A stretch of DNA of 64,000 nucleotides from Terriglobia bacterium (lineage in GTDB: Bacteria; Acidobacteriota; Terriglobia; Bryobacterales; Bryobacteraceae), in assembly GCA_963788485.1 (NCBI GenBank), contig CAWBIS010000206.1, positions 22,301 to 86,300 of the forward strand, read 5' to 3'. The stretch's first letter is position 1. The number at the start of each line of letters is the position of its first letter. The notes beneath the pieces were generated by a model that made no database searches, was not told the DNA's origin, and was given only the letters and a program-made list of their open reading frames with translations. Made by a program: the position numbers and the translations under genes. This document shows, one piece after another, positions 1,821-14,764 of this stretch.

Positions 1821-3146
1821 TCAGGTTCCGGGGCCCGCCCGAATCGAGATTTTACGATAAATGTCGAGGTGTTCCATAACCCTCCGACTGCCGGATCGAC
1901 AGTCGATCCCCATTCGACAATGTTGTTCTTGCCCGTCCGAAGCGGTTCGCTGTTGGTCGGCTTCCATTGGCAGACGCCGAGCTGCGCGAATGCCATCGAA
2001 GGTGCAACGGCCAGAACGATGAGAGTCAGGACGGAGACGACGCGCGCGCTGCGGATTTCCAATGGTCCTCCTCGTGAGCAGGGTGCTTGCACTTGGAGCG
2101 TAATCGCCCGTATCTGAAGCCTCGGGTATCGTAATCATGACGACGGAACGGAGGTCCACCCAGTTCTTAACTAAGCTTTCTATAGTCCGCGAGACCACAT
2201 CGAAGCCGTCGTGCGTAGGATTCAGGAGCACGCCTGGGATTTCACCTCCACGGATATCGACAATACTCTCGCCCTCTGGACTTTTCTGCAAATACAGATA
2301 CGGTGCGTATGCGACAATCTCGTGCACCGGGATACCACCAGGAGAAACTCGATCCAGGAGAAGCCCACGCACTGAGCCGGGTGCATCGTACACGTACAAG
2401 TGAAGCAGGGAATCCAGGTCAACTGTTCGATCAGAGAACTCAAGCCGGTTTCGCATCTGCTCAAGATTCTCCTTCAACCGTCTTAATTGGTAATCGCTGA
2501 TTATGTGTTTCGATTTCGGCGATATGACGAAGAGATAAGTATCCACCTCGCACCCGACAAGTCGCCGAACGAGATCAAGCGCATTCACGCCAGTGTACTG
2601 AATTACATAAGCTTTCCTCGTTCCGGCCGGCTGGGCATTGTTACTCAGATACTGATGCACCTGGTCCGCGAGAGACGCGTTGATATCGAACACAATTGCG
2701 GACTGGCGCCGGACGATGATCTCGAACAAACTCCCGAGCACAAGACGCGCGATTTCGTAGGGTTCGCTCCATGTTTGTGTTGTGTGTCGTCGCATCAGAT
2801 CGTGCACGAACTGTTGTTGAAGAGGATCACTTTCGGTACTCGAAGCATACTTGACAAAGACGATAATCGAGATGCCAAGCCTAACGGCTTCGTGATACTC
2901 CAATTCAACATAGGATTTACCTGATTCCTCGACGGTATCACCGTACCTGAAGCCTGCCATTAAGACGAAAAACTGACATGTGGCGAGCTTCTCGACGATT
3001 CGTTCCGTCGGCCGAGCGCTCGTTGCCGCCCAGTTCTCCATCGAAACAGGTGTACAGTTTGCAGCAAGCACTGCCCGGATCGCCTCAGCTCGTTCCGGCG
3101 CGAGATCGGACGTTGAACTGATGAAGACTCTATAATCACCCTTCAT
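1821..3146 (-). CDS. DUF4062-type (TIR/nucleoside-deoxyribosyltransferase-like fold) N-terminal domain protein with an uncharacterised C-terminal region
   Basis: The N-terminus YRVFISSTSDLAPERAEAIRAVL...CQFFVLMAGFRYG...SYVELEYHEAV...IIVFV matches the DUF4062 pattern from memory. The body (about 2137-3146) is visibly more AT-rich than its flanks. The last ~100 codons are Arg-rich and overlap another ORF's signal-peptide region, so the true 3' end is uncertain. Confidence 0.6.
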   Translation of the reverse strand: MKGDYRVFISSTSDLAPERAEAIRAVLAANCTPVSMENWAATSARPTERIVEKLATCQFFVLMAGFRYGDTVEESGKSYVELEYHEAVRLGISIIVFVKYASSTESDPLQQQFVHDLMRRHTTQTWSEPYEIARLVLGSLFEIIVRRQSAIVFDINASLADQVHQYLSNNAQPAGTRKAYVIQYTGVNALDLVRRLVGCEVDTYLFVISPKSKHIISDYQLRRLKENLEQMRNRLEFSDRTVDLDSLLHLYVYDAPGSVRGLLLDRVSPGGIPVHEIVAYAPYLYLQKSPEGESIVDIRGGEIPGVLLNPTHDGFDVVSRTIESLVKNWVDLRSVVMITIPEASDTGDYAPSASTLLTRRTIGNPQRARRLRPDSHRSGRCTFDGIRAARRLPMEADQQRTASDGQEQHCRMGIDCRSGSRRVMEHLDIYRKISIRAGPGT

Positions 3147-3348
3147 GCCCGGCTACTCCTGATCTTGAGGCTATTGTATCCGCTCCCGCATTCGCTGAGC
3201 GGGCACGTTGCAGACTGTCCTTGCCTATTTCACAGCGCTTTATTCGCAGCGCTTTGCCATAGCTGGCGATAACAGCCTTCCCGCCAGAAATGCTTGTTGG
3301 ACAGATCGAGTTAGAGGGTTAATCGACCGCGGAAATAGAAACGAACGT

Positions 3349-4695
3349 TCAGGCGGGTCGAGAATCGGCCCTGCGGTACAGTCTGTTTTCGATTTCCTCA
3401 ATCCACCTGCCTTCCTTACCTTGCCGGTCCCGATTCTCTCGAATCAGCTTTAAATTATCCGCCGTAGTCCTTGCACGGAAAAGCTCATCCCCAACCAACG
3501 GCAACGCATCCGCGAGGTGAGTCTCCGCCGCTTTCTTGTCATCGGCAAGAACCGCCAGTTCGAGCAAAGTCGCGTGGTCCCAGTAATCCGCACTCGCGGC
3601 CGCCTTCCGCGACGCGGCATAACGAACCACCGGAAGAATCGCAGCCTGACGGGGGTCCGGAGCCTCGGCCAGTTCCATCAGCGTGACCGCATTCACGCCG
3701 GGATACGCGTCCCGCCAATCCGCTTCGAAACCATCGAGGTAACAATCGATCGCCAGCTTCAGACAACCTCGCGCCATCAGGAAATCTCCCTCCGCCAGCG
3801 CAGCCCTATACCGATCCTTATAAACCCGGCCCAGTATCCCGTTCGTCTCGGGACTCGCGCCGTACTCCCTGATCACCTCTTTCAAAACCTTCTCCGCATC
3901 CTTCCACCGACCCGCCCGATTCAGCGCCAGCCCGAATTGCTCCCGCATCATGCGAACACGCTGCAGCGGGCGGGGCAACTCGTCGTAAAACTTCACCATT
4001 TCGCCGAAGGCCTCGACCGCGCGGAACGACAGAAATATCTGAATCACCACTCCCGATTCCACGTCCGCCAGATTCCCCAGGCTCTTCCGAATCGCCTGGA
4101 TGTCGGCGAGCCCGTGAGCCCCTTTCGCCGCAGCGTCGGAAAGCCGCCGGCGCACCTGGTTCGAGTGCTCCACCACCTTGCGGAAGATATCGGTCTTTGA
4201 ATGGTCGAGCCGCGGCCGAGGCAGATCCACCAGGAAGTTGTACACAGGACTGTCGTCCACGCACTGCCGCGCTTCTTCCAGCCTCTTGCTGAGCAGGTCG
4301 ATAAACCCCGGTGCATTTTTCATGCTGTAGGGAATGCCCCTCAGCGGGGCCACATCGAACGGCAGCACCGACCCTTCCTGAAAGATCACCACCGTACTGT
4401 AAGGCCGCAGGGCATGGCGGATTCCCAGCTCATAAAACACGTTCGGATTTTCGCCCGTCAGGTCCGCCACCGCATAGTCGCACAGCATCAGGCGCTCGAA
4501 CATCGGCTTGTGAATCCACCCGCCCACCAGTTCTTCGTCGGCCCGCACCGGTTCCATGTCCGCGGCGGCGATCGCCGGTTCGATCAGCTTTTTATACGCG
4601 GCGTCGAAATCGCGCAGCTTACCCGCGGAGTCCTTCTTCTTCCCGAACGGCATCAATACGAAGCAGAGGGGGCGCACAGGACCCCAGCATCGCAC
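3349..4695 (-). CDS. TIR-fold (nucleoside 2-deoxyribosyltransferase-like) N-terminal domain fused to a DUF4071 / MAP3K(ASK)-TRAF-binding-type TPR region
   Basis: N-terminus is CFVLMPFGKKKD...DFDAAYKKLIEPAI...CDYAVADLTGENPNVFYELGIRHAL. The helical repeat C-terminus is ...GILGRVYKDRY...AIDCYLDGFE...YPGVNAVTL. Start is ambiguous: GTG 4695, GTG 4677 or ATG 4653. Confidence 0.65.
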   Translation of the reverse strand: MRCWGPVRPLCFVLMPFGKKKDSAGKLRDFDAAYKKLIEPAIAAADMEPVRADEELVGGWIHKPMFERLMLCDYAVADLTGENPNVFYELGIRHALRPYSTVVIFQEGSVLPFDVAPLRGIPYSMKNAPGFIDLLSKRLEEARQCVDDSPVYNFLVDLPRPRLDHSKTDIFRKVVEHSNQVRRRLSDAAAKGAHGLADIQAIRKSLGNLADVESGVVIQIFLSFRAVEAFGEMVKFYDELPRPLQRVRMMREQFGLALNRAGRWKDAEKVLKEVIREYGASPETNGILGRVYKDRYRAALAEGDFLMARGCLKLAIDCYLDGFEADWRDAYPGVNAVTLMELAEAPDPRQAAILPVVRYAASRKAAASADYWDHATLLELAVLADDKKAAETHLADALPLVGDELFRARTTADNLKLIRENRDRQGKEGRWIEEIENRLYRRADSRPA

Positions 4696-5885
4696 AAATT
4701 ACAGATCGAAGACCGCGGGGAAATGCTGCTGCCGGACGAGTGCTTCCGCGGCTTTGCGGCCAATTTCGATAGCCGCTTGGCGTTCTCAGGACGGTCGATG
4801 TGCCTCAGGTCCCGAACTTCGTCCGGAGAAACCTCCAGTCCCAGCCGCTCCCGGAACCAATCGCGTTCGATCGGTGCGTCGTACCGCAGGTAATGCAGCA
4901 GGTTCTTCCCTCCCGGCAGGTCCCCGGAGCGGTCCCCCACCTCGCGGTTGATCCGAAGCGCGGTGGGCGACGAGCTCATCCGCTGCAACACGGCCTGCGC
5001 CAGCCAACTCGAATCGTTCATCGCCGAAAACAGCGCCTCGACCGCGAACTCCGCTGCCGACTCGCCGCGATATGACCGACCCCACAGCGGCGCGGGCTGC
5101 GAAGCGCCGGTTCCCAGGGAAAGCAGCATCGGATTCTCCTCGCCGATTCGGCCCTCGGAAGCCGTAGCCCTGCAACGTGGCCGGCATCGGCAGGAGCAGC
5201 GACGGGTTGTTGTGCGGGCCGACTCCGCCATCCGCGAACAGACCTTCCATGCCCGGCGCCACTTCCAGCAGCTGCAGCCCAAAATATGGCGGGGCGGCCG
5301 TGCCCGCGCGCAGCAGGTTTGCGATTTTGATATCGCGGTTTGGCGTGTGAGTACCCGCGGGGGATGACGCCCCGATAAACGCCCCATTCGGGTGATTGTG
5401 GAACAGCCAGACGCTGCCGGTATCCAGCCGTTTCGTAACGATGGCGAGCCCGCAGGCGACGCGGTCCGAACCCGGCGTATCCGGCCCGAACTCTCGGAGG
5501 ATGGCCTCACGCAGCGCTTCGTCGTCGAATTTGGGCATGAAGGCGCCGCCGAACCATTGAACCATTTGAGCCCGAACCATTCGCGGCGGACGAACGATTC
5601 GTGGGAGATGTGGAGGTAGAGGTCGATCAGTTCCGTGACGGTGTGGCCGATCGCCAGGCCGGCGGCAACGATGGCGCCGGTGGACGTGCCGCCGATCAGG
5701 GAGACGTAGTGGCAGAGGAGGAAATCGAGATATTGAGCAGGCGGAAGACGGGACTGCAGGAGGGCTTCGATGCGTTCGAGGAAGGCGAGGGAGATGACGC
5801 CGCGGACGCCCCCGCCATCGAGGGAAAGGATGCGCTTCGGGCCGGAGTCGAAGAGGTGATGGTGACGGAGTGCGGCCGGGCTCAT
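4653..5885 (-). pseudogene. Patatin-like phospholipase interrupted by two compensating frameshifts
   Basis: Frame A (5885 to ~5570) has DGGGVRG (oxyanion hole) and GGTSTGA (GxSxG). Frame B (~5570 to ~5150, inside ORF 4786-6345) has FGGAFMPKFDDEAL...FADGGVGPHNNP (catalytic DGG). Frame A resumes with RIGEENPMLLSLGTGAS... and runs to the stop at 4653. Shift 1 lies in a GAACCATT x3 cluster at 5551-5581. Shift 2 lies at about 5145-5165. Confidence 0.8.
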
Positions 5886-8791
5886 CAGTGCATCGCTTCG
5901 AGACAGCGCTGGTGGTTGGCTGCGAAGAGTTTCGTATTGGGATGTTCCGGTCCGAGAACTCGAAGGGCAGCTTCGAGAGCGCGGCGGTAGAGAGGCTCGG
6001 CGGCGGCGTAATCCCCCTGGCTCGCCAGCAGGTGCGCCAGATTGTTGACCGAAGCGAGGGTATCGGGATGCTCGGGCCCCAGCACGCGCTCCCTGGCCTC
6101 GAGAGCGCGGCGGTAGAGAGGCTCGGCGGCGGCGTAATCCCCCTGGCTCTCCAGCAGGTACGCCAGATTGTTGACCGAACCGAGGGTATCGGGATGCTGG
6201 GGTCCCAGCACGCGCTCCCTGGCTTCGAGAGCGCGGCGGTAGAGAGGCTCGGCGGCGGCGTAATTCCCCTGGCTCTCCAGCAGGCCCGCCAGATTGTTGA
6301 CCGAAGTGAGGGTATCGGGATGCTCGGCTCCCAGCACGCGCTCACTGGCTTCGAGAGCGCGGCGGTAGAGAGGCTCGGCGACGGCGTAATCCCCCTGTCT
6401 CTCCAGCAGGTACGCCAGATTGTTGACCGAACCGAGGGTATCGGGATGCTCGGGTCCCAGCACGCGCTCCCTGGCTTCGAGAGCGCGGCGGTAGAGAGGC
6501 TCGGCGGCGGCGTAATCCCCCTGGCTCGCCAGCAGGCCCGCCAGATTGTTGACCGAACCGAGGGTATCGGGATGCTCGGGTCCCAGCACGCGCTCCCTGG
6601 CTTCGAGAGCGCGGCGGTAGAGAGGCTCCGCGGCGGCGTAATCCCCCTGGCTCGCCAGCAGGCCCGCCAGATTGTTGATCGAAGTGAGGGTAGCGGGATG
6701 CTCGGGTCCCAGCACGCGCTCCCAGGCTTCGAGAGCGCGGCGGTAGAGAGGCTCGGCGGCGGTGTAATCCCCCTGACTCTTCAGCAGGTACGCCAGATTG
6801 TTGACCGAACCGAGGGTATCGGGATGCTCGGGTCCCAGCACGCGCTCACAGGCTTCGAGAGCGCGGCGGTAGAGAGGCTTGGCGGCTGCGTAATCCCCCT
6901 GTCTCGCCAGCAGGCCCGCCAGATTGTTGACCGAAGTGAGGGTATCGGGATGCTCGGGTCCCAGCACGCGCTCCCAGGCTTCGAGAGCGCGGCGGTAGAG
7001 AGGCTCGGCGGCGGCGTAATCCCCCTGGCTCTCCAGCATGCCCGCCAGATTGTTGACCGAACCGAGGGTATCGGGATGCTCGGCTCCCAGCACGCGCTCC
7101 CTGGCTTCGAGAGCGCGGCGGGCTGCCTCCGAGCCCTTGCGGTAGCTTCCGGCGTGGCGAAACGCGCTGGCCAGTTCCCCCCAGATCTTTGCCTGTAATT
7201 CTCTCTCGACCAAATCGCATCCGGCCAATGCGCGCGAATGGCTGACCAGTCCGGCCCAGATACGCTGGCTTTCGCGATCCCACGAGGGCGCCGGCGTCGC
7301 ACGAAAGTACATCTCGGCCGCTCTTTGCGCAACTTTCCCGGCGCGGTCGCCCATCTCGTGCCGTTCCACCGCCTGCACCAGCGCATGGACTAAAATGCAT
7401 CCGCCCGACTCCTGCTTCGCCATCGAATATCGCAGCAGGCTTTCCTTCCAGTCGCGAACGGCTTCCTCATCGGGAACATCCGTCGCCGCCTCTGCCGCCA
7501 GTTGTTCCGCCCCGGCAATATAGAGGCTGACGGGGAACGGTGTCGGCGCGAAGAATGCGTGCAGCCGCAACATCGCGCGCGCACCGGCCGGCAGCGCATC
7601 AAGTGTCGTCCTCCAGGTCAGATAAACCGAATCCGGATAGTCCGTCGCGCCCGGCGTCCGCCTCTTCAGATAATGTCGCTCATTTACCTCAAATCGCCGC
7701 GAATAGTCCGCAAACCCGACCTCGGGATGCTGCGCCACATATGCTGCCGCCTGCTCCAACGCCAACGGCAGGTACTGCAGTTTCTCCGCCACCCGATCCG
7801 CCGCCGCTTCCTCGCCCGCAATCCCTGCCCGCTCGCCGCGCCGGAGCAACAGCTCCCGCGCCGGCTCCGGGTCCAGTACCCAAACCGGATGCGTGGCAAT
7901 CCCCTCCGACCACTCCGTAAAGCGCGAAGTAATCAGCACGTGGCAATTCCCGGAAGCCGGGAGCCAGGGAAGAACGGACTTCTCATTCTCGGCGTTGTCG
8001 AGAATCAGCAGCCTCTGTTCCGAATACGGCTGCTCCAGTTCCTGTTTGGCCCGTTTGGCGCGAATCTCGACCTTAACGGCTTGCTCCTGTCCCGGGTTCA
8101 GCAGGTCGTAAATCTCCGCGAACCCGGTCTCCAGACCGGTGCGGCAATCCACCCAGAACATCTGGCGATAGCAGCGCCAGAACTTCTCCGCATAATGGCG
8201 CGCCAGGGTGGTCTTGCCGATGCCGCCCAGCGCCGGAAGCGCGATCACGCTGCCCTGCGTCAGCGCCGTCGGCCGGCTCAGAAACAGCTTCTCGTGCAGT
8301 TCGACCATGGTTGGGTCACGCCCGACGAAATGCTCGATCGGACGGTGTTTCAGGAGGGTTGCCCGGCCTTTTTCCCCACGCACGGGCCGCGGCTCATCGC
8401 GATAGGTCTGCAGGCGTGCGATCAACCGCTCCCAGTCGGAGGAGGTGGCGGACTCGTAAACCACCAGATCGCTCTGAAAGATTGAGAGGGGCGGCGTGAC
8501 CGCTTCCGTCCACGTGCCCCGAAGCAGCAAAGGAACCACGCGCGCCGCGCCGTAGGTTTCATAACGAGTCCAGAGCGAATTTTTCCATTGCGGCGTCAGT
8601 AGAGGAATCACGATGCGGCTGGCCTCGCAATGCCGTTCGATCTCCTCATGCCAGCGCATTTCGGGTGCGAGATAGGCCTTGTCCCACCAGACCTTGAAAC
8701 CTGCCGCAGTCAGGCGCGCGTGGATTTCTTCGGCCACGGCAGCATCTTCAGAACAATAGCTCAGGAAGCAATCGTAATATTCGGGAAACAC
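5885..8791 (-). CDS. TIR - NB-ARC (STAND NTPase) - TPR repeat protein
   Basis: TIR domain: YDCFLSYCSEDAAVAEEIHARLTAAGFKVWWDK ... NSLWTRYE (candidate catalytic Glu). NB-ARC domain: Walker A GGIGKTTLA (8207-8227), Walker B LLILDNAE, HVLITSR and YLPLALEQAA (GLPLAL-like). About ten 42-aa kinesin-light-chain-type TPR units follow (YRRALEARERVLGPEHPDTLGSVNNLAGLL.SQGDYAAAEPL). GTG start. Confidence 0.9.
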   Translation of the reverse strand: MFPEYYDCFLSYCSEDAAVAEEIHARLTAAGFKVWWDKAYLAPEMRWHEEIERHCEASRIVIPLLTPQWKNSLWTRYETYGAARVVPLLLRGTWTEAVTPPLSIFQSDLVVYESATSSDWERLIARLQTYRDEPRPVRGEKGRATLLKHRPIEHFVGRDPTMVELHEKLFLSRPTALTQGSVIALPALGGIGKTTLARHYAEKFWRCYRQMFWVDCRTGLETGFAEIYDLLNPGQEQAVKVEIRAKRAKQELEQPYSEQRLLILDNAENEKSVLPWLPASGNCHVLITSRFTEWSEGIATHPVWVLDPEPARELLLRRGERAGIAGEEAAADRVAEKLQYLPLALEQAAAYVAQHPEVGFADYSRRFEVNERHYLKRRTPGATDYPDSVYLTWRTTLDALPAGARAMLRLHAFFAPTPFPVSLYIAGAEQLAAEAATDVPDEEAVRDWKESLLRYSMAKQESGGCILVHALVQAVERHEMGDRAGKVAQRAAEMYFRATPAPSWDRESQRIWAGLVSHSRALAGCDLVERELQAKIWGELASAFRHAGSYRKGSEAARRALEARERVLGAEHPDTLGSVNNLAGMLESQGDYAAAEPLYRRALEAWERVLGPEHPDTLTSVNNLAGLLARQGDYAAAKPLYRRALEACERVLGPEHPDTLGSVNNLAYLLKSQGDYTAAEPLYRRALEAWERVLGPEHPATLTSINNLAGLLASQGDYAAAEPLYRRALEARERVLGPEHPDTLGSVNNLAGLLASQGDYAAAEPLYRRALEARERVLGPEHPDTLGSVNNLAYLLERQGDYAVAEPLYRRALEASERVLGAEHPDTLTSVNNLAGLLESQGNYAAAEPLYRRALEARERVLGPQHPDTLGSVNNLAYLLESQGDYAAAEPLYRRALEARERVLGPEHPDTLASVNNLAHLLASQGDYAAAEPLYRRALEAALRVLGPEHPNTKLFAANHQRCLEAMH
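5930..7140. repeat. Tandem 126-bp DNA repeats (about 10 units) encoding the TPR array
   Basis: The motif gagagcgcggcggtagagaggctcggcggcggcgtaatccccctg recurs at 5975, 6101, 6227, 6353, 6479, 6605, 6731, 6857, 6983 and (degenerate) 7109. The period is exactly 126 bp and nucleotide identity between units is high. Confidence 0.9.
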
Positions 8792-10486
8792 CTATTTCGC
8801 TCCCAGGTTGGCCGAAAGCTTTCGTTCGCGATGCATGGCCAGCCAGTCCGCGCTTTCGGCCAATGAATGGCAGCCCAGTTCCCGCAGGGTCTCCTCACAT
8901 TTGCCGAACTCTCCGTTGGATTCGAATTCCTCCAGATCCCGGTCGGCATCGTGAAACAAAGTGTGCATCTGTGCGTACTGCCGGGCCTCCTGCGTGAAGC
9001 CCCGGCGCTCGACGTAATCACACGCCAGCGCCGCCCACCACATGGCGACCGGAGCGGTGACTGCAGTCCACTCGCCGAAAGTGAAAAACCGGTTCAGCAG
9101 CGGCAGGGCGAGCCCGGTGATTCCGGCGATGGTGGCCAGAATATGGAAGGCGAGCTTTTTGCGCTTATGGCGCCTGCCGGTTTTCAGGAAATAGTTCCTC
9201 TGACTGACGACCCATTCGCGAGCCAGACGCAATCGGCCGGCGAGTCCCTCAATTTGCGCCGGACTCAGGCTGAGGACGCCCTCATACAGTGCGCATTCGC
9301 TGATGGCGTCGCGGATCCAGACCATTTCTCCGGCCTGTTTGCGAAGGTACTTATCGGCTGCGAGGTCGGGGAGGCCGGCCACCATCCAGAAAAACTGGAC
9401 ACGAAGGGCTTCCGCCAGTGCCCGGTAATCTTCGTGGCGGCCCCGCAGTTCGGCCCTTCGTTCGAGGAGAATAGGCAGGGCCGCAGCGGCGAGACAGGCG
9501 TAGTAGCCGTAAAGCAAATCGTTTTGGCCAGAGATATGGGAAAGCGCCAGGAACAGCCCCGCGAACGCCAGCATGACAAAGGCGAACTGCCAGCTGAGAA
9601 GACCGCGTTCGGCATAGCGGATGGCAAGGGCGTCGGCGCGCGAATAGGCCCCCATCACCCATTTCATAGCGGGCGTGAGGCCCACCGGTTCGCCTTTGGG
9701 GAACAGGTCCCTGCGGCTTCTGGCGACTGCTTTTGGGAAGTCTTTGCCGGCCTGGGCGACGTCCGCGTTGAACTTATCGAGCAAAAGGTAGCAGGCGTGA
9801 TAACCCGCCCATGTGGTCCCGTGGGGGACAGCTTCCTCGCATTTGAGCGCGGGAGTGGCGGAATGCCCGGATCCCGGAGTTCGGGCGGGGATGATGTATA
9901 CCGGGCCCGCGCCTTCGGCGTTGATTCGCGACCGGGAGAGGCGGTGATGGCGACTGTCTCGCCGGAGTTTCATGTCCACGACATCTGTGGCACCGCCTTC
10001 CTTGCGCGCGCGATCCCGGTCCCAGATGGCAATGAGGATCTGGCTGTAACGCACCAGGTATTCGCCGAGAAGGCGGTACTGATGTGCCCGCGGCTCGCCT
10101 GCAAGCCGAACCATCTCCGGGGTGACTCCGGGAGCAAGGGGCAGAGTGATGCATCGGACCGCGCGGTCGCGCATTTCGCAGAATTCCCGGTCGCTCGCTT
10201 CACTGGCGAATTCAGTGCGATAGAGATCTTCCGGCATGGGGAGGATCGCAGCGTAAGAAACCGCGATTTCCTTTTCCTGCGCCACGCGCACGGCGATTCG
10301 GTCGGCGCCTTCGGCCAGGCCGGAAAGCAGCAGGATCGGGGTATGGCGGTAGGCGTGTTTTAGTTTCTTAAAAATGACGCGGATTTCGGTTTCGTAACGC
10401 GGAATATCCTCGTCGATTAGTTTGAGGTGCCCGGTCACGGCTACCACCAGGGAGAGTGAGCCCTTTGTGAAGTCCTCGCTGGCCAT
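8792..10486 (-). CDS. SLOG (LOG/DprA/YpsA-like Rossmannoid) domain protein fused to two tandem 2-TM modules (SLATT/LSDAT-like)
   Basis: N-terminus is LVVAVTGHLKL...ILLLSGLAEGADRIAVRVAQE...ILIAIWDRDRARKEGGATDVV, a YpsA/LOG-like pattern. TM pair 1 is LLSWQFAFVMLAFAGLFLAL / LLYGYYACLAAAALPILL, followed by ELRGRHEDYRALAEALRVQFFW. TM pair 2 is LAFHILATIAGITGLALPLL / WTAVTAPVAMWWAALACDYV, preceded by QRNYFLKTGRRHKRKK. Confidence 0.6.
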   Translation of the reverse strand: MASEDFTKGSLSLVVAVTGHLKLIDEDIPRYETEIRVIFKKLKHAYRHTPILLLSGLAEGADRIAVRVAQEKEIAVSYAAILPMPEDLYRTEFASEASDREFCEMRDRAVRCITLPLAPGVTPEMVRLAGEPRAHQYRLLGEYLVRYSQILIAIWDRDRARKEGGATDVVDMKLRRDSRHHRLSRSRINAEGAGPVYIIPARTPGSGHSATPALKCEEAVPHGTTWAGYHACYLLLDKFNADVAQAGKDFPKAVARSRRDLFPKGEPVGLTPAMKWVMGAYSRADALAIRYAERGLLSWQFAFVMLAFAGLFLALSHISGQNDLLYGYYACLAAAALPILLERRAELRGRHEDYRALAEALRVQFFWMVAGLPDLAADKYLRKQAGEMVWIRDAISECALYEGVLSLSPAQIEGLAGRLRLAREWVVSQRNYFLKTGRRHKRKKLAFHILATIAGITGLALPLLNRFFTFGEWTAVTAPVAMWWAALACDYVERRGFTQEARQYAQMHTLFHDADRDLEEFESNGEFGKCEETLRELGCHSLAESADWLAMHRERKLSANLGAK

Positions 10487-10603
10487 CGGCGGGGTAGCTG
10501 CGATGGTAACACGGGAAATGGGAAAAGCCGGCGAAGCTGGACCGCACGAGTTGGCGACTGGGAGTCGGAAAGAAGGTCTTTCTTTACAGAGTTGAGGGTG
10601 CGG

Positions 10604-10632
10604 ATTATCCCGGAGAGGGCTTTACTTGTCGA
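10604..10632 (-). promoter_or_regulatory. sigma70-like promoter candidate for the SLOG/TIR operon
   Basis: The minus strand reads TCGACA-N17-GATAAT (-35 at 10627-10632, -10 at 10604-10609), about 120 nt upstream of ATG 10486. Confidence 0.3.
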
Positions 10633-10774
10633 AAGGGCTGTTATCAACAGGAATCATTCGCTAGGTGTGTGAGGTTGGACCGTTCCGTTTAGCTCCGGTC
10701 GCCGGGTTTAATCCCACCGCCTTTGAGGCGGCCAGCTTTGAGCAGCTTGGTTCCACGCCCAAGACAATGAGGGA

Positions 10775-10905
10775 GTGGCGGATTACAGGTATAGCACGCA
10801 CGCGGTGTTCGATTTGCAGTATCACGTGCTCTGGTGTACAAAGTACAGATACAAGATACTGCGCGGTCGAGTGGCGGAGTTGCGCGCACGAGCGTTGAGC
10901 CGGGC
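10775..10905 (+). pseudogene. N-terminal remnant of an IS200/IS605-family Y1 transposase (TnpA)
   Basis: YSTHAVFDLQYHVLWCTKYRYKILRGRVAELRAR matches the conserved N-terminus including the HxxYHxVW.TKYR motif. Similarity is lost after ~43 codons, and the catalytic HUH/Tyr parts are absent. Confidence 0.6.
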
Positions 10906-11176
10906 ACCTTCCAGACGGCTTCAGCCGTCCCCGCGCGAATTTAAGTCGTGTTGGATTCTAACGGCTTTAAGCCGGCAGTCGTTAGAAAACAACGGCGCGG
11001 GCGGCCACGCAAGCGCTGGCCATGTCTTGCCACATTCGCGGCACGGCGGAGCGCAGTCAGCGCCTCTTGCTCGGATGGCAGGCCCTTGCCTCGCGTGGTG
11101 CGCATGGCATGTCGGCTTTTCGTATCCCGCAGGTCGCATCGGCGTTGGATATGATATCTGATGTTTAAGACAGCCC

Positions 11177-14005
11177 GTGCTTCTATCCATTGTCAGGGCG
11201 GCAATCGTTCCGATCAAGCTCCTGTTTGGGTTTGACGCCTTCGTTTCCTACTCGCGCCGGGACGGAGCCAATTACTCTGAAGCCTTGGAACGGGAACTCG
11301 CCCGCCATATCTCTCCCCGCATGGACATCCAAGAGAGCAGGGCGGGCGAGACTATTCCACTGGGGCTAAAAATCAGCATAGCGTTCAGCAAAGTTTTTAT
11401 CCTAGTCGCTACCAGCGGCGCGTCGGACTCCAGGCATATCGAAGCCGAAGTCCTAACGTTTAAGAAATGGAGCAACGGCCCCATCATTCTCATCCAGCTT
11501 CCTGCCCCCGACGGGGAGGCCGTCTGGCGGACATATTTTAAAGGCCTCCCCGTCCTCGCGGAGACTGATCACAATCGAAGTTCCGGCCACCCTTCGGACT
11601 GCGTAATTCAGCGCATCCTAAATAATGTCGGCTATTGGCGCCGCAGCCGCCGGCAACGCCTCGCGACCACAGTTTTAACAATTGTGCTCGCCACTTTGGG
11701 AATTCTAGTAAGAAGTGCCTACGTTTCGCTGGGCCGAGCCACGACCGAAGCCAGAGCCCAACAAAGGGCTGCGCGAACCGCCAAAAGCGAAGCCGAGGCA
11801 GCCACCCAAGAGACCGCTCGCCAAGTCACAAATCTACGCGCAGCGGAGCGCGCTCGCGACAAGGCGAACGAAGCGCAGAGCAAAGCTGAAAGATTGACCG
11901 CCCAGAGTTCCGCCCGATACACGGAGGCCCTGTCGAAGTATCTTGCGATCAAGGCAGCTGACCCGGACGCGCCCCAGTTGCCGCTTTTTATCGAGTCCGT
12001 GCTTCGGAAGCCGGTCGATACGGGAGTAAGCGGGCTCATGACGCGCATCCCGCTTCAGCGGCGCATCATTGCGACGCTCCCGCACGCGGAGTCTTTGAAC
12101 GCCGTCGCGTTCAGCCCGGACGGCAAGACCCTCGCTACCGCCAGCAATGTGACCACGTGGCTGTGGGATGCTGTTTCCGGCCAGCTTCGCGCCACCCTTC
12201 AGGACGGTGGCGCCCGTGGCGCCGTCTCCGCCGTCGCTTTCAGCCCAGACGGCAGGACCGTTGCCACAGTTGACGGCTGGTCAACGCGACTGTGGGATAC
12301 CTCGACCGGTCGGCTCCGCGCGACCTTTGAGAGCGTACTGGCAGGCGCTGTTGCCTTCAGCCCTGACGGCAAAACCCTCGCTACGGTTTGGGCGGCATCC
12401 GACGTGCGTCTGTTGGATTTAGCCTCGAGACAGCCCGACGTCGCCCTCGGACACCACCAATCAAACGTAACTGCGATCGCATTTAGTCCGGACGGCAAGA
12501 CCGTCGGCACATCGAGTCTCGATCGGACCGCGCGGCTGTGGGATGCCTCCTCTGGACAGCTTCGGGTAACCCTTCAGCACCAAGGTGCTGTTTACGCCCT
12601 CGCTTTCAGCCCCGATGGCAGGGAGGTCGCCACGGGCGACGACAGCGCCGCACGGCTGTGGGATGCCGTTTCCGGCCAGCTTCGCGCCACCCTTCAACAA
12701 AAAGGGATTGTCCACGCTGTTGCCTTCAGCCCTGACGGCAGAATCGTCGCCGCGGGCGTCGACAACACCGCACGGCTATGGGATGTCGCCTCCGGCGAAC
12801 CGCGCGCCGCCCTTGAGCACCGAAACATCGTTCGCGCCATTGCCTTTAGCCCGAATGGAAAGATCATCGCGACGGCCGACGACAGGACAGCCACGCTGTG
12901 GGACGCCTCGTCTCGTGATCGCAGTGCGATCCTCCCGCAAAGCCTTAGCGCCGTAGCATTCAGCCCTGATGGTAAAACAGTCGCTACAGGCAATAGCGAC
13001 AATGCCGTGCGACTTTGGGATGCCGTCTCCGGCCAAATAGGAGTTACCCTTCAGCAGCGGTCGATCGTCTTAGCAGTCGCCTTTAGCCCGGACGGTAAGA
13101 CCGTCGGGACTCCGGACGGTCCCGTCTCGAGGCTGTGGGATGCCGTCTCAGGCAAGCCCCGCGTCACGCTCCCGCACGCCCCGTGGCCCCTCTGCGCCCC
13201 CGCCTTTAGCCCTGATAGCAGGATCGTCGCTACCGCCGATCTGGATAACGCTGCGCGGCTTTGGGATGCCTCTTCCGGCCAACTACGCGCTACCCTCCCG
13301 CACAAAGGCAACGTGGTCGCTGTCACCTTCGGCCCGGAAGGCAAAACCGTCGCCACCGCCAGTCTTGACAAGACCGCGCGGTTGTGGGATGCGTCTTCCG
13401 GCCAACTGCGCGCAACCCTCCAACACCAAGATTCCGTGCGCGCGGTGGCCTTCAGCCCGGACGGCAAGACTGTCGTAACCGCCAGTGACGACAAGACCGC
13501 GCGGCTTTGGGATGCGTTTTCCGGCGAACTGCGCGCAACCCTCCAACACCAAGATCGCGTGCGTGCGGTGGCCTTCAGCCCGGACGGTAAGACTGTCGCA
13601 ACCGCCGGTGACGACAAGACCGCGCGGCTTTGGGATGCGTTTTCCGGCCGGCTCCGCGCCGCCCTCCAGCACCAAGCCGGCGTGACAGCCGTTGCCTTCA
13701 GCCCGGACGGTAACACTGTCGCCACCGGGAGCTATGACAAGACTGCGTGGCTGTGGGATGTCGAGACCGGTCAGCCCCGTGCCGATCTTCAGTACCACGG
13801 CGCCGTCTACGCCGTCGCCTTTAGCCCGGATGGCAAGACTTTACTCGTGTCGTCCGACCGTGAGGCGCAGCTCTATCTTTACCATCCTGCAGACCTTATC
13901 GAGGCCGCTTGCGACTTCCTGCCATTCAATCTCACGCCGGCGCAATGGAAGATTTATTTGCCGGACGAGCCCTACAGAAAGACCTGCCCGAGAATTCGTA
14001 ACTGA
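11177..14005 (+). CDS. TIR - single TM - coiled coil - 15x WD40 repeat protein
   Basis: TIR domain: FDAFVSYSRRDGANYSEALERELAR ... SRHIEAEVLTF. The basic stretch WRRSRRQR is followed by TM helix LATTVLTIVLATLGILV (about 11660-11725) and an Ala/Glu/Arg-rich coiled coil (about 11732-11926). Fifteen units of AVAFSPDGKTVATAS.DKTARLWDA.SGQLRATLQH follow. GTG start. Confidence 0.85.
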   Translation: MLLSIVRAAIVPIKLLFGFDAFVSYSRRDGANYSEALERELARHISPRMDIQESRAGETIPLGLKISIAFSKVFILVATSGASDSRHIEAEVLTFKKWSNGPIILIQLPAPDGEAVWRTYFKGLPVLAETDHNRSSGHPSDCVIQRILNNVGYWRRSRRQRLATTVLTIVLATLGILVRSAYVSLGRATTEARAQQRAARTAKSEAEAATQETARQVTNLRAAERARDKANEAQSKAERLTAQSSARYTEALSKYLAIKAADPDAPQLPLFIESVLRKPVDTGVSGLMTRIPLQRRIIATLPHAESLNAVAFSPDGKTLATASNVTTWLWDAVSGQLRATLQDGGARGAVSAVAFSPDGRTVATVDGWSTRLWDTSTGRLRATFESVLAGAVAFSPDGKTLATVWAASDVRLLDLASRQPDVALGHHQSNVTAIAFSPDGKTVGTSSLDRTARLWDASSGQLRVTLQHQGAVYALAFSPDGREVATGDDSAARLWDAVSGQLRATLQQKGIVHAVAFSPDGRIVAAGVDNTARLWDVASGEPRAALEHRNIVRAIAFSPNGKIIATADDRTATLWDASSRDRSAILPQSLSAVAFSPDGKTVATGNSDNAVRLWDAVSGQIGVTLQQRSIVLAVAFSPDGKTVGTPDGPVSRLWDAVSGKPRVTLPHAPWPLCAPAFSPDSRIVATADLDNAARLWDASSGQLRATLPHKGNVVAVTFGPEGKTVATASLDKTARLWDASSGQLRATLQHQDSVRAVAFSPDGKTVVTASDDKTARLWDAFSGELRATLQHQDRVRAVAFSPDGKTVATAGDDKTARLWDAFSGRLRAALQHQAGVTAVAFSPDGNTVATGSYDKTAWLWDVETGQPRADLQYHGAVYAVAFSPDGKTLLVSSDREAQLYLYHPADLIEAACDFLPFNLTPAQWKIYLPDEPYRKTCPRIRN
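12070..13880. repeat. Tandem ~123-bp DNA repeats encoding the WD40 blades
   Basis: The 41-aa blade period is visible at DNA level. Units between about 13330 and 13740 are near-identical (gacaagaccgcgcggctttgggatgcgttttccggc...gccttcagcccggacggtaagactgtcg). Confidence 0.85.
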
Positions 14006-14445: not shown

Positions 14446-14521
14446 TGGTGAGCCGGGCGGGGCTCGAACCCGCGACCACCGCATTAAAAGTGCGATGCTC
14501 TACCAACTGAGCTACCGGCTC
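14446..14521 (-). tRNA. tRNA-Lys (anticodon TTT)
   Basis: The reverse complement GAGCCGGTAGCTCAGTTGGTAGAGCATCGCACTTTTAATGCGGTGGTCGCGGGTTCGAGCCCCGCCCGGCTCACCA folds as a cloverleaf with anticodon loop CTTTTAA and an encoded CCA. Confidence 0.95.
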
Positions 14522-14677: not shown

Positions 14678-14764
14678 GCGGATGTGGCGAAACTGGCAGA
14701 CGCGCCAGATTTAGGTTCTGGTTTCCGAAAGGAAGTGAAGGTTCAAGTCCTTTCATCCGCACCA
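14678..14764 (+). tRNA. tRNA-Leu (anticodon TAG), class II with a long variable arm
   Basis: GCGGATGTGGCGAAACTGGCAGACGCGCCAGATTTAGGTTCTGGTTTCCGAAAGGAAGTGAAGGTTCAAGTCCTTTCATCCGCACCA has an anticodon arm CCAGA-TTTAGGT-TCTGG, a variable stem TTCC/GGAA and an encoded CCA. Confidence 0.95.

What the first reader, a model, noticed from the sequence alone, without database searches (positions are those of the whole stretch)
11177..14005. TIR-TM-coiled-coil-WD40x15 protein with an inverted Toll-like-receptor topology
Seen in sequence: an N-terminal TIR is followed by a basic patch WRRSRRQR, one hydrophobic helix (about 11660-11725), a ~65-aa Ala/Glu/Arg-rich coiled coil and 15 WD40 blades (two propellers).

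Inference from the positive-inside rule: the TIR would be cytoplasmic and the propellers extracytoplasmic. That makes it a transmembrane receptor that couples an outside repeat sensor to an inside TIR, like TLRs but with reversed domain order. The gene is divergently placed next to the SLOG/TIR-STAND operon, so its TIR could feed the same SLOG receptor.
Basis: partly seen in the sequence, partly recalled or inferred. Interest (0 to 1): 0.65.

Follow-up and report, generated by a model that had tools for sequence, protein, structure and literature searches.

The report
Membrane TIR receptor with outward WD40 propellers
This gene encodes a bacterial inner-membrane protein with an NAD-cleaving-type TIR domain inside the cell and two WD40 propellers predicted to face the periplasm; it belongs to a very large, untested family that may let bacteria couple sensing at the cell envelope to TIR-based immunity.

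Summary
The ORF at 11177-14005 (+, GTG start, 942 aa) is real, and its described anatomy holds. It has an N-terminal TIR, the basic patch WRRSRRQR, one hydrophobic helix, an Ala/Glu/Arg-rich helical stalk and 15 WD40 blades.

The TIR fold is confirmed. Its invariant Glu91 aligns with the catalytic Glu of the SARM1 NADase.

The layout is not a one-off. A profile of the N-terminal part finds 910 protein clusters at E<=1e-10. Of 138 representatives, 133 keep a single about 23-residue hydrophobic segment after an Arg-rich motif. Of 50 scanned, 43 carry WD40 propellers.

TIR-inside, propellers-outside is therefore a well-supported prediction, but it is untested.

The proposed link to the neighbouring SLOG gene is not supported. 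None of about 26 relatives' loci has a SLOG/SLATT gene, and homology starts at the start codon. A minority sit in tight clusters with patatin and TPR-S genes, which also occur in the window's neighbouring operon.

The architecture appears in print only as rows in a supplementary table (Kaur 2021). This scan has flagged the same architecture before on other DNA (e1-2470112, e1-4209256).

Verdict: a new variant of a known kind (a TIR immune protein), of moderate to high interest.

The parts
11177..14005 (+). Whole gene: TIR - basic motif - TM - helical stalk - 15 WD40 blades - C-terminal cap (942 aa, GTG start)
   Evidence: The ORF is listed and translated. The start is supported by alignment with homologues.
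11228..11632 (+). TIR domain (about residues 18-152), predicted cytoplasmic
   Evidence: Pfam TIR_2 hit. AF2 model with pLDDT 90.4. Foldseek top hits are RUN1, RPV1 and SARM1 TIR domains. The family profile hits the SARM1 TIR at E 4e-12.
11447..11449 (+). Codon of Glu91 (second E of HIEAEV), the candidate catalytic glutamate
   Evidence: Invariant in alignments A3, A4 and A5. It aligns with the Glu of SARM1 'WVHKEI'. That this is the SARM1 catalytic residue E642 is from established knowledge.
11636..11659 (+). Basic juxtamembrane motif WRRSRRQR (residues 154-161); family consensus F-x-R-R-x-x-R-L-R
   Evidence: Net charge of the N-side flank is +6, against +2 for the C-side flank.
11660..11725 (+). 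Single transmembrane helix (residues 162-183; uncharged core 162-178)
   Evidence: KD19 is 1.88. The segment is conserved as a hydrophobic stretch in 133 of 138 relatives. It lies within a confident helix in the AF2 model.
11726..11962 (+). Ala/Glu/Arg/Gln-rich helical stalk (residues 184-262), predicted periplasmic
   Evidence: AF2 helices at 156-245, 250-260 and 267-277. Composition and heptad test. A coiled coil is not demonstrated.
12065..12910 (+). WD40 blades 1-7 (residues 297-578), first propeller
12944..13879 (+). WD40 blades 8-15 (residues 590-901), second propeller. Blades 11-13 are 76-89% identical to each other at the DNA level.
13880..14002 (+). C-terminal cap with a Cys pair (AAC-x-FLPFNLTPAQWKIY-x-PYRKTCP)
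   Evidence: Shared with P0002 and P0003 and with 14 of 98 large family members. AF2 confidence is low here.

Best explanation
The gene encodes a single-pass (type II, N-in) inner-membrane protein.

**Layout.** Its N-terminal TIR domain, which keeps the catalytic glutamate of NAD-cleaving TIRs, sits on the cytoplasmic face. One helix crosses the membrane. An Ala-rich helical stalk then holds two WD40 propellers (7+8 blades) in the periplasm.

**Role.** It is a self-contained sensor-effector of the bacterial conflict or anti-phage type.

**Proposed mechanism.**
1. A ligand binds the variable top faces of the propellers.
2. Binding clusters or re-orients the receptors.
3. The cytoplasmic TIR domains come together into the oligomers that TIR NADases need for activity.
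4. NAD+ is cleaved. This either depletes NAD+ and stops growth (abortive infection) or makes an ADPR-derived signal.

**Shown here:** the domain order, the TIR fold, conservation of the Glu, conservation of the TM segment and its charge bias, the blade count, the stand-alone and patchy distribution, and the defence-type neighbours.

**Inferred:** the topology, NADase activity, activation by clustering, the immune role and the nature of the ligand.
For: **Domain anatomy**
- The anatomy is confirmed.
- The TIR fold is confirmed by Foldseek.
- The family profile hits SARM1 NADase at E 4e-12, with E91 aligned on its catalytic Glu. E91 is invariant.

**Family and membrane segment**
- The N-terminal profile finds 1971 cluster representatives at E<=1e-3 and 910 at E<=1e-10, nearly all matching through the TM region.
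- 133 of 138 have a single hydrophobic segment with a median 23-aa core.
- The N-side flank has 5.1 Lys/Arg and the C-side flank 3.3; the N side is higher in 114 of 138.
- 49 of 50 have TIR_2 and 43 of 50 have WD40 propellers.
- One member replaces WD40 with an FGE-sulfatase domain.
- The Kaur 2021 supplement lists TIR+TM+CHASE2, where CHASE2 is an extracytoplasmic sensor by established knowledge.

**Host envelope**
- The host has Omp85 and AsmA-like genes, so it has a periplasm.

**Stand-alone, patchy gene**
- The four closest homologues lie in four unrelated contexts.
- No upstream DNA or partner gene is conserved.
- Only 4 of 401 genomes sampled from the phylum have a match that spans TIR to TM.
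- It is the only WD40 gene found in this genome.

**Genomic context**
- It lies in a TIR-rich island next to tRNA-Lys and tRNA-Leu, with an IS200 remnant.
- Neighbours of relatives include further TIR proteins (7 of 116 neighbours), patatin effectors, subtilase/IetS, pAgo with TIR-APAZ, integrases and transposases.

**Sensor diversification**
- Blades vary at a few positions (2, 16-20, 38-41) on an otherwise near-identical scaffold.
- DNA identity between blades reaches 89%.
Against: - Topology rests on prediction only. No predictor such as DeepTMHMM and no experiment was available.
- For this particular protein the hydrophobic core is short (17 uncharged residues) and Thr-rich. A crude Hessa-scale sum is slightly positive at +1.6.
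- The C-side flank is still fairly basic across the family (3.3 Lys/Arg).
- No fused domain that is diagnostic of the periplasm was found in longer relatives; they carry only TPR-like and HEAT repeats.
- This sequence falls just below the Pfam TIR_2 threshold.
- Several relatives sit among housekeeping genes: pheST, molybdenum-cofactor oxidoreductases, ComEC. That fits a non-immune role equally well.
- PADLOC has no model for this protein.
- No paper in the searched library tests any member.
Confidence: 0.55

Rival explanations
1. One reading: the TIR of this membrane protein makes an NAD-derived signal that is read by the SLOG-SLATT protein of the divergent neighbouring operon. The gene would then be an extra, outward-looking sensor arm of that Thoeris-like system.
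For: - The two are adjacent and divergently oriented, 690 bp apart.
- The neighbour encodes SLOG (YAcAr) plus SLATT, a TIR-NB-ARC-TPR protein and a patatin.
- Type VII Thoeris pairs a TIR with a SLATT effector (bioRxiv 10.64898/2025.12.03.692087).
- Earlier scan notes on other subfamilies report SLATT neighbours (e1-2470112, e1-5244821). These notes were not checked here.
Against: - No SLOG/SLATT homologue was found within 10 kb of about 26 relatives, using phmmer with the window's own protein.
- Neither family is among the 25 most frequent Pfam families of 116 neighbours.
- The closest homologues have unrelated neighbours.
- An IS200 remnant lies between gene and operon.
- The operon already has its own TIR enzyme.
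Confidence: 0.12
2. The gene is one component of a recurrent multi-gene set made of membrane TIR-WD40, another TIR protein, a patatin phospholipase and a TPR-S (DUF4071) protein. In the window this set is split over two divergent transcription units. The TIR output would act through the patatin or TPR-S partners rather than through NAD+ depletion alone.
For: **Tight same-strand clusters**
- L008, Chryseobacterium formosense: TIR-TM-WD40 > patatin > TIR > TPR-S, with gaps of 93, 0 and -35 bp.
- L017, Pyrinomonadaceae: patatin > TPR-S > TIR-TM-WD40.
- L079: TPR-S > TIR-TM protein, with a 34-bp gap.
- The more distant TIR-TM-WD40 genes of L021 (Burkholderiales) and L088 show the same set.

**Match to the window**
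- The window's patatin (4653-5885) and TPR-S (3349-4695) resemble these partners at E 1e-21 to 1e-37.
Against: - Only 3-4 of about 26 strict members show this arrangement.
- Close homologues of the window's TPR-S protein are mostly solitary. Of three contexts sampled, one had a TIR neighbour and none had a TIR-TM-WD40.
This was not re-tested here.
- Co-location in defence islands can arise without a functional link.
Confidence: 0.15
3. A non-immune envelope protein. The propellers and stalk would scaffold or monitor an envelope structure, and the TIR would act as a protein-interaction or regulatory module rather than as a suicide enzyme.
For: - Several relatives lie among housekeeping genes.
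- Many small TIR-TM proteins exist in the same phylum, which suggests a general membrane-TIR theme.
- An earlier checked note on the related nSTAND1+TM+propeller proteins says that several reports weigh against an immune role (e1-2100490).
Against: - The catalytic Glu is invariant over the whole family.
- The nearest solved relatives are NADases.
- Distribution is very patchy: 4 of 401 genomes sampled from the phylum.
- It sits in a tRNA-adjacent island with IS remnants and other TIR, STAND and patatin genes.
- The blades show repeat diversification.
Confidence: 0.12
4. The hydrophobic segment is not membrane-spanning. The protein would be a soluble cytoplasmic TIR-WD40 sensor, like a TIR-NLR without the NTPase, with a long helical linker.
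For: - The core in this protein is only 17 uncharged residues, is Thr-rich and is of marginal hydrophobicity.
- WD40 arrays of this consensus type, and the C-terminal 'NLT..EW..Y' cap, are recalled from memory to occur in cytoplasmic STAND proteins. This was not tested.
- No periplasm-specific domain was found in relatives.
Against: - Across the family the segment is strongly hydrophobic: KD19 is at least 2.0 in 107 of 138 and reaches 2.96.
- The core has a constant length of about 23 aa, its sequence is not conserved, and it always follows an Arg-rich motif. This is the signature of a signal-anchor, not of a buried helix.
Confidence: 0.05

Closest known systems
'TIR+TM+BetaPropeller' architecture rows in the supplement of Kaur, Iyer, Burroughs & Aravind 2021 (eLife, PMC8195603)
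   Same: The same domain order is listed twice as a neighbour gene, in Leptolyngbya sp. SIO3F4 and Verrucomicrobium sp. BvORR106. The related rows 'nSTAND1+TM+BetaPropeller' and 'TIR+TM+CHASE2' are listed too.
   Different: These are table rows only. The searched main text gives no analysis, topology argument or experiment, and the rows are incidental neighbours of the STAND proteins studied there.
SARM1 and bacterial TIR NADases (AbTIR, TIR-STING, TIR-SAVED, SPARTA TIR-APAZ)
   Same: They share the TIR fold and the aligned catalytic Glu. They also share a single-polypeptide sensor-plus-TIR logic in which oligomerisation switches on NAD+ cleavage; that last point is from established knowledge of those systems.
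   Different: All of them are soluble and sense intracellular ligands. None has a membrane helix between sensor and TIR.
Toll-like receptors / IL-1 receptors
   Same: They are single-pass membrane receptors with a repeat-built outside sensor and a cytoplasmic TIR, and signalling is by receptor clustering.
   Different: - Orientation is opposite: they are type I, with a signal peptide and a C-terminal TIR.
- The sensor is LRR or Ig rather than WD40.
- The TIR acts mainly as an adaptor scaffold.
- There is no homology outside the TIR.

The resemblance is an analogy, not membership.
Thoeris (ThsB TIR plus effector; type VII = TIR + SLATT ThsH, bioRxiv 10.64898/2025.12.03.692087)
   Same: It is a TIR-based anti-phage system, and the window's neighbouring operon is of this general type.
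   Different: Thoeris is defined by a TIR gene paired with a cognate effector gene. This family has no conserved partner, and ThsB proteins are soluble.
Receptor Ser/Thr kinases with an extracellular beta-propeller (M. tuberculosis PknD type) and TolA-like stalks (both from own knowledge, not tested here)
   Same: The layout is a cytoplasmic catalytic domain, one TM helix and an extracytoplasmic propeller. The Ala- and charge-rich helical stalk after the TM helix resembles TolA domain II.
   Different: The output domain is a kinase rather than a TIR, and the propeller is of NHL rather than WD40 type. No sequence relationship was examined.

Membership tests
TIR domain (Pfam TIR_2, PF13676) | Score above the Pfam gathering threshold | tested here: inconclusive
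   This sequence scores 25.8 bits against a cut-off of 28 (E 1.7e-5). 49 of 50 family relatives match at E<=1e-4, best 1.3e-18.
TIR domain (Pfam TIR_2, PF13676) | Flavodoxin-like five-strand beta/alpha TIR fold | tested here: met
   The AF2 model has pLDDT 90.4. All top Foldseek PDB hits are TIR domains, led by RUN1 at E 1.6e-6, with RPV1 and SARM1 following.
NAD+-cleaving TIR enzymes | Catalytic glutamate at the position of SARM1 E642 | tested here: met
   E91 is invariant and aligns with the Glu of SARM1 'HKEI' in the profile alignment.
NAD+-cleaving TIR enzymes | Measured NADase activity | not testable with these tools
   This needs a biochemical assay.
WD40 repeat beta-propeller (PF00400) | Tandem repeats of about 40 aa scoring above threshold and forming 7- or 8-bladed propellers | tested here: met
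   The score is 377 bits against a cut-off of 27. There are 15 repeats. AF2 predicts four-strand blades at pLDDT 80-95.
Single-pass type II (N-in) membrane protein | One hydrophobic segment of about 20 residues, conserved as hydrophobic in homologues | tested here: met
   KD19 is 1.88 here. 133 of 138 relatives reach 1.6 or more, the median core is 23 aa, and there is no second segment.
Single-pass type II (N-in) membrane protein | Positive-inside charge bias with the N-side more basic, and no signal peptide | tested here: met
   Net flank charge is +6 on the N side and +2 on the C side here. The N side is more basic in 114 of 138 relatives. The N-terminus is an interrupted amphipathic helix that is not conserved as hydrophobic in the family.
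Single-pass type II (N-in) membrane protein | Experimentally determined topology | not testable with these tools
   This needs PhoA/LacZ fusions or protease accessibility assays.
Thoeris-type TIR signalling system | TIR gene conserved next to a cognate effector gene (SLOG, Macro, SLATT and others) | tested here: not met
   No SLOG/SLATT was found in about 26 loci. No partner is conserved in the majority. The closest homologues are solitary.
Toll-like receptor family | Signal peptide, N-terminal LRR ectodomain, TM helix, C-terminal TIR | tested here: not met
   The order is the opposite and the sensor is WD40, not LRR. The resemblance is an analogy only.
'TIR+TM+BetaPropeller' architecture class (Kaur 2021 supplement) | N-terminal TIR, one TM helix, C-terminal beta-propeller repeats, no NTPase | tested here: met
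   No NB-ARC, NACHT or P-loop hit was found in P0001.

The most novel reading that the evidence does not exclude
Bacteria possess true outside-in innate immune receptors. Members of this large TIR-TM-WD40 family would detect a phage part or another foreign structure in the periplasm, for example during adsorption or genome injection. They would then switch on a cytoplasmic TIR NADase by receptor clustering. This would be a functional counterpart of Toll-like receptors that arose independently, and the first bacterial TIR defence that senses before the invader reaches the cytoplasm.
Probability: 0.35. Interest if true: 0.85.

Novelty: new variant of a known kind. Interest (0 to 1): 0.6.

Why it matters
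Every characterised bacterial TIR defence senses its trigger inside the cell. This covers Thoeris, TIR-STING, TIR-SAVED, SPARTA, Avs and TIR-STAND.

A 2024 survey of E. coli TIR systems states that TLR-like features such as a membrane span plus a repeat sensor seem to be absent from bacterial TIR systems (PMC11350192).

This gene shows that a large family with exactly that layout exists: at least 910 clusters at 50% identity. It occurs in Acidobacteriota, Bacteroidota, Gemmatimonadota, Myxococcota, Proteobacteria and others.

If the predicted topology and NADase activity hold, the family gives a simple one-gene system for asking two questions: how bacteria sense threats at the envelope, and how a signal crosses the membrane to a TIR enzyme.

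It also gives a concrete case for comparing convergent receptor design between bacteria and animals.

Tried and rejected
1. **SLOG/SLATT co-occurrence.** phmmer with the window's SLOG-SLATT, TIR-NB-ARC-TPR, patatin, TPR-S and DUF4062 proteins was run against all ORFs of relatives' loci.
2. **A conserved small partner gene or upstream element.** The 84-aa antisense ORF upstream of P0002 has no counterpart in the window. Upstream DNA of close homologues does not align.
3. **A fused domain that would fix the compartment of the C-terminal part.** C-terminal extensions of longer relatives gave only TPR-like and HEAT repeats or nothing. One relative has FGE-sulfatase in place of WD40. The result is inconclusive.
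4. **Reverse test from the TPR-S protein.** Three contexts of its close homologues showed no TIR-TM-WD40 gene, and one had a TIR neighbour. The TPR-S link therefore stays a minority association.
5. **Promoter and terminator scan.** Around the gene it gave nothing above shuffled expectation. Rfam found only the two tRNAs.
6. **PADLOC.** There is no model for this protein; the WD40 part hit only a repeat model.
7. **Literature.** No paper names or tests TIR-TM-WD40. Only supplementary table rows were found.
9. **Canonical coiled coil.** The heptad test is weak, so the segment is called a helical stalk here.
10. **The pAgo/TIR-APAZ neighbour.** I tried to find which relative's locus holds it. L073 was checked and instead holds an M28 peptidase and ComEC. 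The locus was not identified.


Full report
**1. The observation**

The window has an open frame at 11177..14005 on the + strand. It is 942 aa and starts at the first GTG after an in-frame TGA at 11159. The four closest homologues start with ATG at the aligned position, and DNA similarity between the loci begins exactly at this codon. The start and the gene are therefore sound.

- **TIR.** The motif FDAFVSYSRRD opens a TIR-like domain. Pfam TIR_2 gives E 1.7e-5 and 25.8 bits, just under the 28-bit cut-off, over residues 22-109.
- **Basic patch.** WRRSRRQR is residues 154-161.
- **Hydrophobic stretch.** LATTVLTIVLATLGILV(RSAYV) is residues 162-183, which is nt 11660-11725. Its Kyte-Doolittle (KD) mean over 19 residues is 1.88.
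- **Stalk.** An Ala/Glu/Arg/Gln-rich helix follows.
- **Blades.** There are 15 repeats anchored on AFSPDG with a period of 38-43 aa. Pfam WD40 scores 377 bits.

Two points need softening:
- 'Coiled coil' is not shown. Large hydrophobic residues occupy only 23% of the best a/d heptad positions, or 64% if Ala is counted. I call it a helical stalk.
- 'Two propellers' is inferred from the blade count and a low-confidence break at residues 579-590 in the full-length model. It was not checked in 3D.

**2. The TIR domain**

I aligned the N-terminal 200 residues with 27 relatives read from fetched loci (A5).
- AlphaFold2 on this alignment gave a confident model: pLDDT 90.4, pTM 0.81. It shows a five-strand beta/alpha domain, a short helix at 141-151 and one long helix at 156-199.
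- Foldseek against the PDB returned only TIR domains at the top: RUN1, RPV1, SARM1 and TLRs.
- A profile of the same alignment hit the SARM1 TIR NADase at E 4e-12. It placed the family's invariant Glu (E91, the second E of HIEAEV) on the Glu of SARM1 'WVHKEI'. By established knowledge this is the catalytic residue E642.
- D20, F22, S24, Y25, R27, D50 and E91 are invariant in alignments of 50, 40 and 28 diverse members. S85 and G123 are invariant in the first two of these.

The TIR is therefore of the enzyme-competent type. Activity itself is untested.

**3. The layout is a family trait**

A profile of the N-terminal 190 residues (TIR through TM) was run against 1.84 billion cluster representatives. 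It found 1971 proteins at E<=1e-3 and 910 at E<=1e-10. Almost all of the best 150 match right through the membrane segment.

Among the 138 representatives of at least 260 aa:
- 133 have a segment with KD19 of at least 1.6 directly after a conserved basic motif (consensus F-x-R-R-x-x-R-L-R), and 107 reach 2.0.
- The uncharged core has a median of 23 residues.
- No second hydrophobic segment follows in 135 of them.
- The 15 residues before the segment hold on average 5.1 Lys/Arg and 0.8 Asp/Glu. The 15 after it hold 3.3 and 2.2. The N side is the more basic in 114 of 138.

Pfam scans of 50 spread representatives found TIR_2 in 49 and WD40-type propellers in 43. One member has an FGE-sulfatase domain instead.

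The segment is conserved as a hydrophobic stretch of constant length with no sequence conservation, which is how signal-anchors behave.

**4. Topology**

- With a single span, the TIR and the propellers must lie on opposite sides of the membrane.
- The strong positive charge on the N side, the absence of a signal peptide and the size of the N-terminal domain (160 aa) all argue that the TIR stays in the cytoplasm. Bacterial N-tail translocation without a signal peptide is limited to short tails, by established knowledge. The cytoplasm is also where NAD+ is.
- The genome encodes four Omp85-family proteins and an AsmA-like protein, so the cell has an outer membrane and a periplasm.
- The Ala- and charge-rich helix after the TM resembles periplasm-spanning stalks such as TolA domain II (from memory). 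In relatives with at least five recognisable blades, TM end to first blade measures 73-381 aa, median 158.
- The supplement of Kaur et al. 2021 also lists TIR+TM+CHASE2 proteins. CHASE2 is an accepted extracytoplasmic sensor, so TIR-in, sensor-out is a recurring design.

Against this reading:
- The core in this particular protein is short and Thr-rich.
- The C-side flank is not free of positive charge.
- I found no fused domain in relatives that would prove a periplasmic location.

I put the TIR-in, WD40-out topology at roughly 0.75-0.8.

**5. Is it tied to the neighbouring operon?**

The neighbouring minus-strand operon encodes the following:

| Coordinates | Product |
|---|---|
| 8792-10486 | SLOG(YAcAr)+SLATT |
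| 5885-8791 | TIR-NB-ARC-TPR |
| 4653-5885 | patatin |
| 3349-4695 | TPR-S/DUF4071 protein |

Earlier notes of this scan read this operon as Thoeris-like (e1-4077557, e1-4077556).

Between the operon's start and this gene lie 690 bp holding an IS200 Y1-transposase remnant.

The four closest homologues (41-56% identity over the N-terminal part) sit in four unrelated contexts:
- beside molybdenum-cofactor oxidoreductases;
- among rve integrases and a group II intron;
- beside a BNR protein and a methylase;
- beside pheST.

I then collected 69 further loci from named genomes and metagenomes. Those carrying the full TIR-to-TM module were defined with an HMM.
- In about 26 such loci with usable flanks, phmmer with the window's own proteins found no SLOG-SLATT homologue.
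- A Pfam tally of 116 neighbours within 4.5 kb gave, as the most frequent families: further TIR_2 proteins (7), TPR proteins (5-6), patatin (3), WD40 (3), TPR-S (2), subtilases (2) and integrases (2).
- PADLOC found CBASS-type phospholipase effectors, subtilase/IetS, one pAgo with TIR-APAZ, one PD-T4-6 kinase and others among the same neighbours.

The gene is therefore mostly solitary and tends to lie among defence-type and mobile genes. It is not linked to SLOG.

One unexpected result keeps a weaker link alive. Patatin and TPR-S genes, homologous to the last two genes of the window's operon (E 1e-18 to 1e-37), form tight same-strand clusters with family members:
- In Chryseobacterium formosense (L008) the order is TIR-TM-WD40 > patatin > TIR > TPR-S.
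- In a Pyrinomonadaceae genome (L017) the order is patatin > TPR-S > TIR-TM-WD40.
- In L079 a TPR-S gene sits directly upstream of the TIR-TM gene.
- The same set occurs with more distant TIR-TM-WD40 genes in L021 (Burkholderiales) and L088.

The reverse test was weak. Of three contexts of close TPR-S homologues, none held a TIR-TM-WD40 gene and one held another TIR protein. I keep this as a rival at 0.15.

**6. Distribution**

- In 401 genomes sampled from the window's own phylum, only four including this one have a match that spans TIR to TM. 20 have any match at 1e-10.
- This genome is 86% complete and holds no other WD40 gene of this type.
- Named relatives come from Pyrinomonadaceae and other Acidobacteriota, Chryseobacterium and Flavobacteriales, Longimicrobium, Polyangiaceae and Bryobacteraceae. 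More distant TIR-TM proteins occur in Burkholderiales, Rubrivivax, Solirubrobacteraceae and others.
- The gene lies 440 bp upstream of tRNA-Lys(TTT) and tRNA-Leu(TAG). It ends a run of TIR-fold, STAND, patatin and DUF4062 genes.

All of this marks an accessory, horizontally moving, single-gene cassette.

**7. The sensor**

- The 15 blades share a near-constant scaffold (V-x-AVAFSPDGKTVATAS-x-D-x-TARLWDA-x-SGQLRATLQH).
- Variation is concentrated at repeat positions 2, 16-20 and 38-41.
- Blades 11-13 are 76-89% identical to each other at the DNA level, with both synonymous and non-synonymous differences.
- This fits a repeat array that is amplified and diversified, as in other immune-type WD40 sensors (from memory: fungal HET-E/NWD proteins).

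**8. How it most likely works**

*Shown:* the anatomy, the TIR fold and Glu, the conserved signal-anchor, the charge bias, stand-alone inheritance, and the island context.

*Inferred:* resting receptors are spread in the inner membrane with their TIR domains apart. A periplasmic ligand then bound by the propeller faces brings receptors together or twists the stalks. The TIR domains assemble into the head-to-tail oligomers that known TIR NADases need, and NAD+ is cleaved.

Most loci lack a partner gene, and the nearest solved relatives are NAD+-depleting enzymes. Direct NAD+ depletion (abortive infection or growth arrest) is therefore the more likely output, and signal production for a partner is the alternative.

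The trigger is unknown. Phage parts crossing the periplasm, cell-wall damage or a competitor's delivered proteins are all possible.

**9. Comparison with what is known, and novelty**

- The architecture appears in print only as 'TIR+TM+BetaPropeller' rows in a supplementary table of Kaur et al. 2021.
- No paper in the searched library analyses or tests it.
- A 2024 survey of E. coli TIR systems remarks that TLR-like membrane and repeat features seem absent from bacterial TIR systems.
- This scan has met the same architecture on other DNA: e1-2470112 (cyanobacterium), e1-4209256 and e1-5244821. My results agree on anatomy and family size. They did not reproduce the SLATT partnership reported in some of those notes.
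- It works like a TLR in outline but is not a member of that family: the order is opposite, the sensor is WD40, and the TIR is of the enzyme type.
- It is not a Thoeris system, because it has no cognate effector.

I class it as a new variant of a known kind, namely TIR immune proteins with repeat sensors. Here the sensor is membrane-spanning and outward-looking.

**10. Limits**

- Topology, enzyme activity, immune role and ligand are all predictions.
- No transmembrane predictor was available.
- The neighbour statistics rest on about 26 loci, some of them related.

Noticed in passing
L008:9983-16021; L017:6696-12892; L079:357-4103; L021:6048-13165; L088:2510-6723: Patatin and TPR-S (PF20308/DUF4071) genes recur in tight, mostly same-strand clusters with TIR-TM-WD40 genes. 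This is seen in Bacteroidota, Acidobacteriota, Burkholderiales and two metagenome contigs. L008 also has a second TIR gene and a TPR-S-trypsin gene. It may be an undescribed multi-gene TIR/patatin/TPR-S system.
   Followed up: partly
window 10775-10880: A remnant of an IS200-type Y1 transposase, with only the first 26 or so profile positions surviving (Pfam Y1_Tnp, E 8.7e-5). It lies in the 690-bp spacer between the divergent operon and this gene.
   Followed up: partly
window 14446-14521 (-) and 14678-14764 (+): tRNA-Lys(TTT) and tRNA-Leu(TAG) lie directly downstream of the gene. The TIR-rich gene run 1821-14005 ends at these tRNAs, as expected for an integrated island.
   Followed up: partly
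window 1821-3146 (-): A DUF4062 protein of 441 aa. A 2026 preprint abstract (10.64898/2026.05.01.722283, seen) reports DUF4062 as a TIR-like NADase family forming the 'Swarozyc' anti-phage system. This would add another NAD-targeting gene to the island.
   Followed up: no
window 13880-14002; C-termini of P0002, P0003, P0047, P0049, P0100, P0119 and others: A conserved C-terminal cap follows the last blade: A-C-x(4-6)-R-N-L-[ST]-x-x-E-W-x-x-Y ... Y-x-x-T-C-P, with two conserved Cys. It occurs in 14 of 98 large family members. A disulfide would fit a periplasmic location, but this is untested.
   Followed up: partly
L009:9914-13288 and L009:13965-17270: Two TIR-WD40 genes of this type lie in tandem in one Pyrinomonadaceae genome.
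   Followed up: no
loci L036-L064 (genomes of the window's phylum): Many shorter TIR proteins (300-500 aa) in the same phylum also carry a strongly hydrophobic segment after a basic motif downstream of the TIR. Membrane-anchored TIR proteins therefore seem to be a broad theme there.
   Followed up: partly
one of the 24 relatives' loci in alignment A6 (locus not identified): A long pAgo (PADLOC pAgo_I, E 1.7e-207) and a TIR-APAZ-type partner (E 3.7e-151) lie within 4.5 kb of a family member.
   Followed up: no
window 3349-4695 (-); P0154-P0272: The TPR-S/DUF4071 protein belongs to an unusually conserved and abundant family. Thousands of homologues are 55-60% identical over the full length, and most are solitary in the three contexts sampled.
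   Followed up: partly
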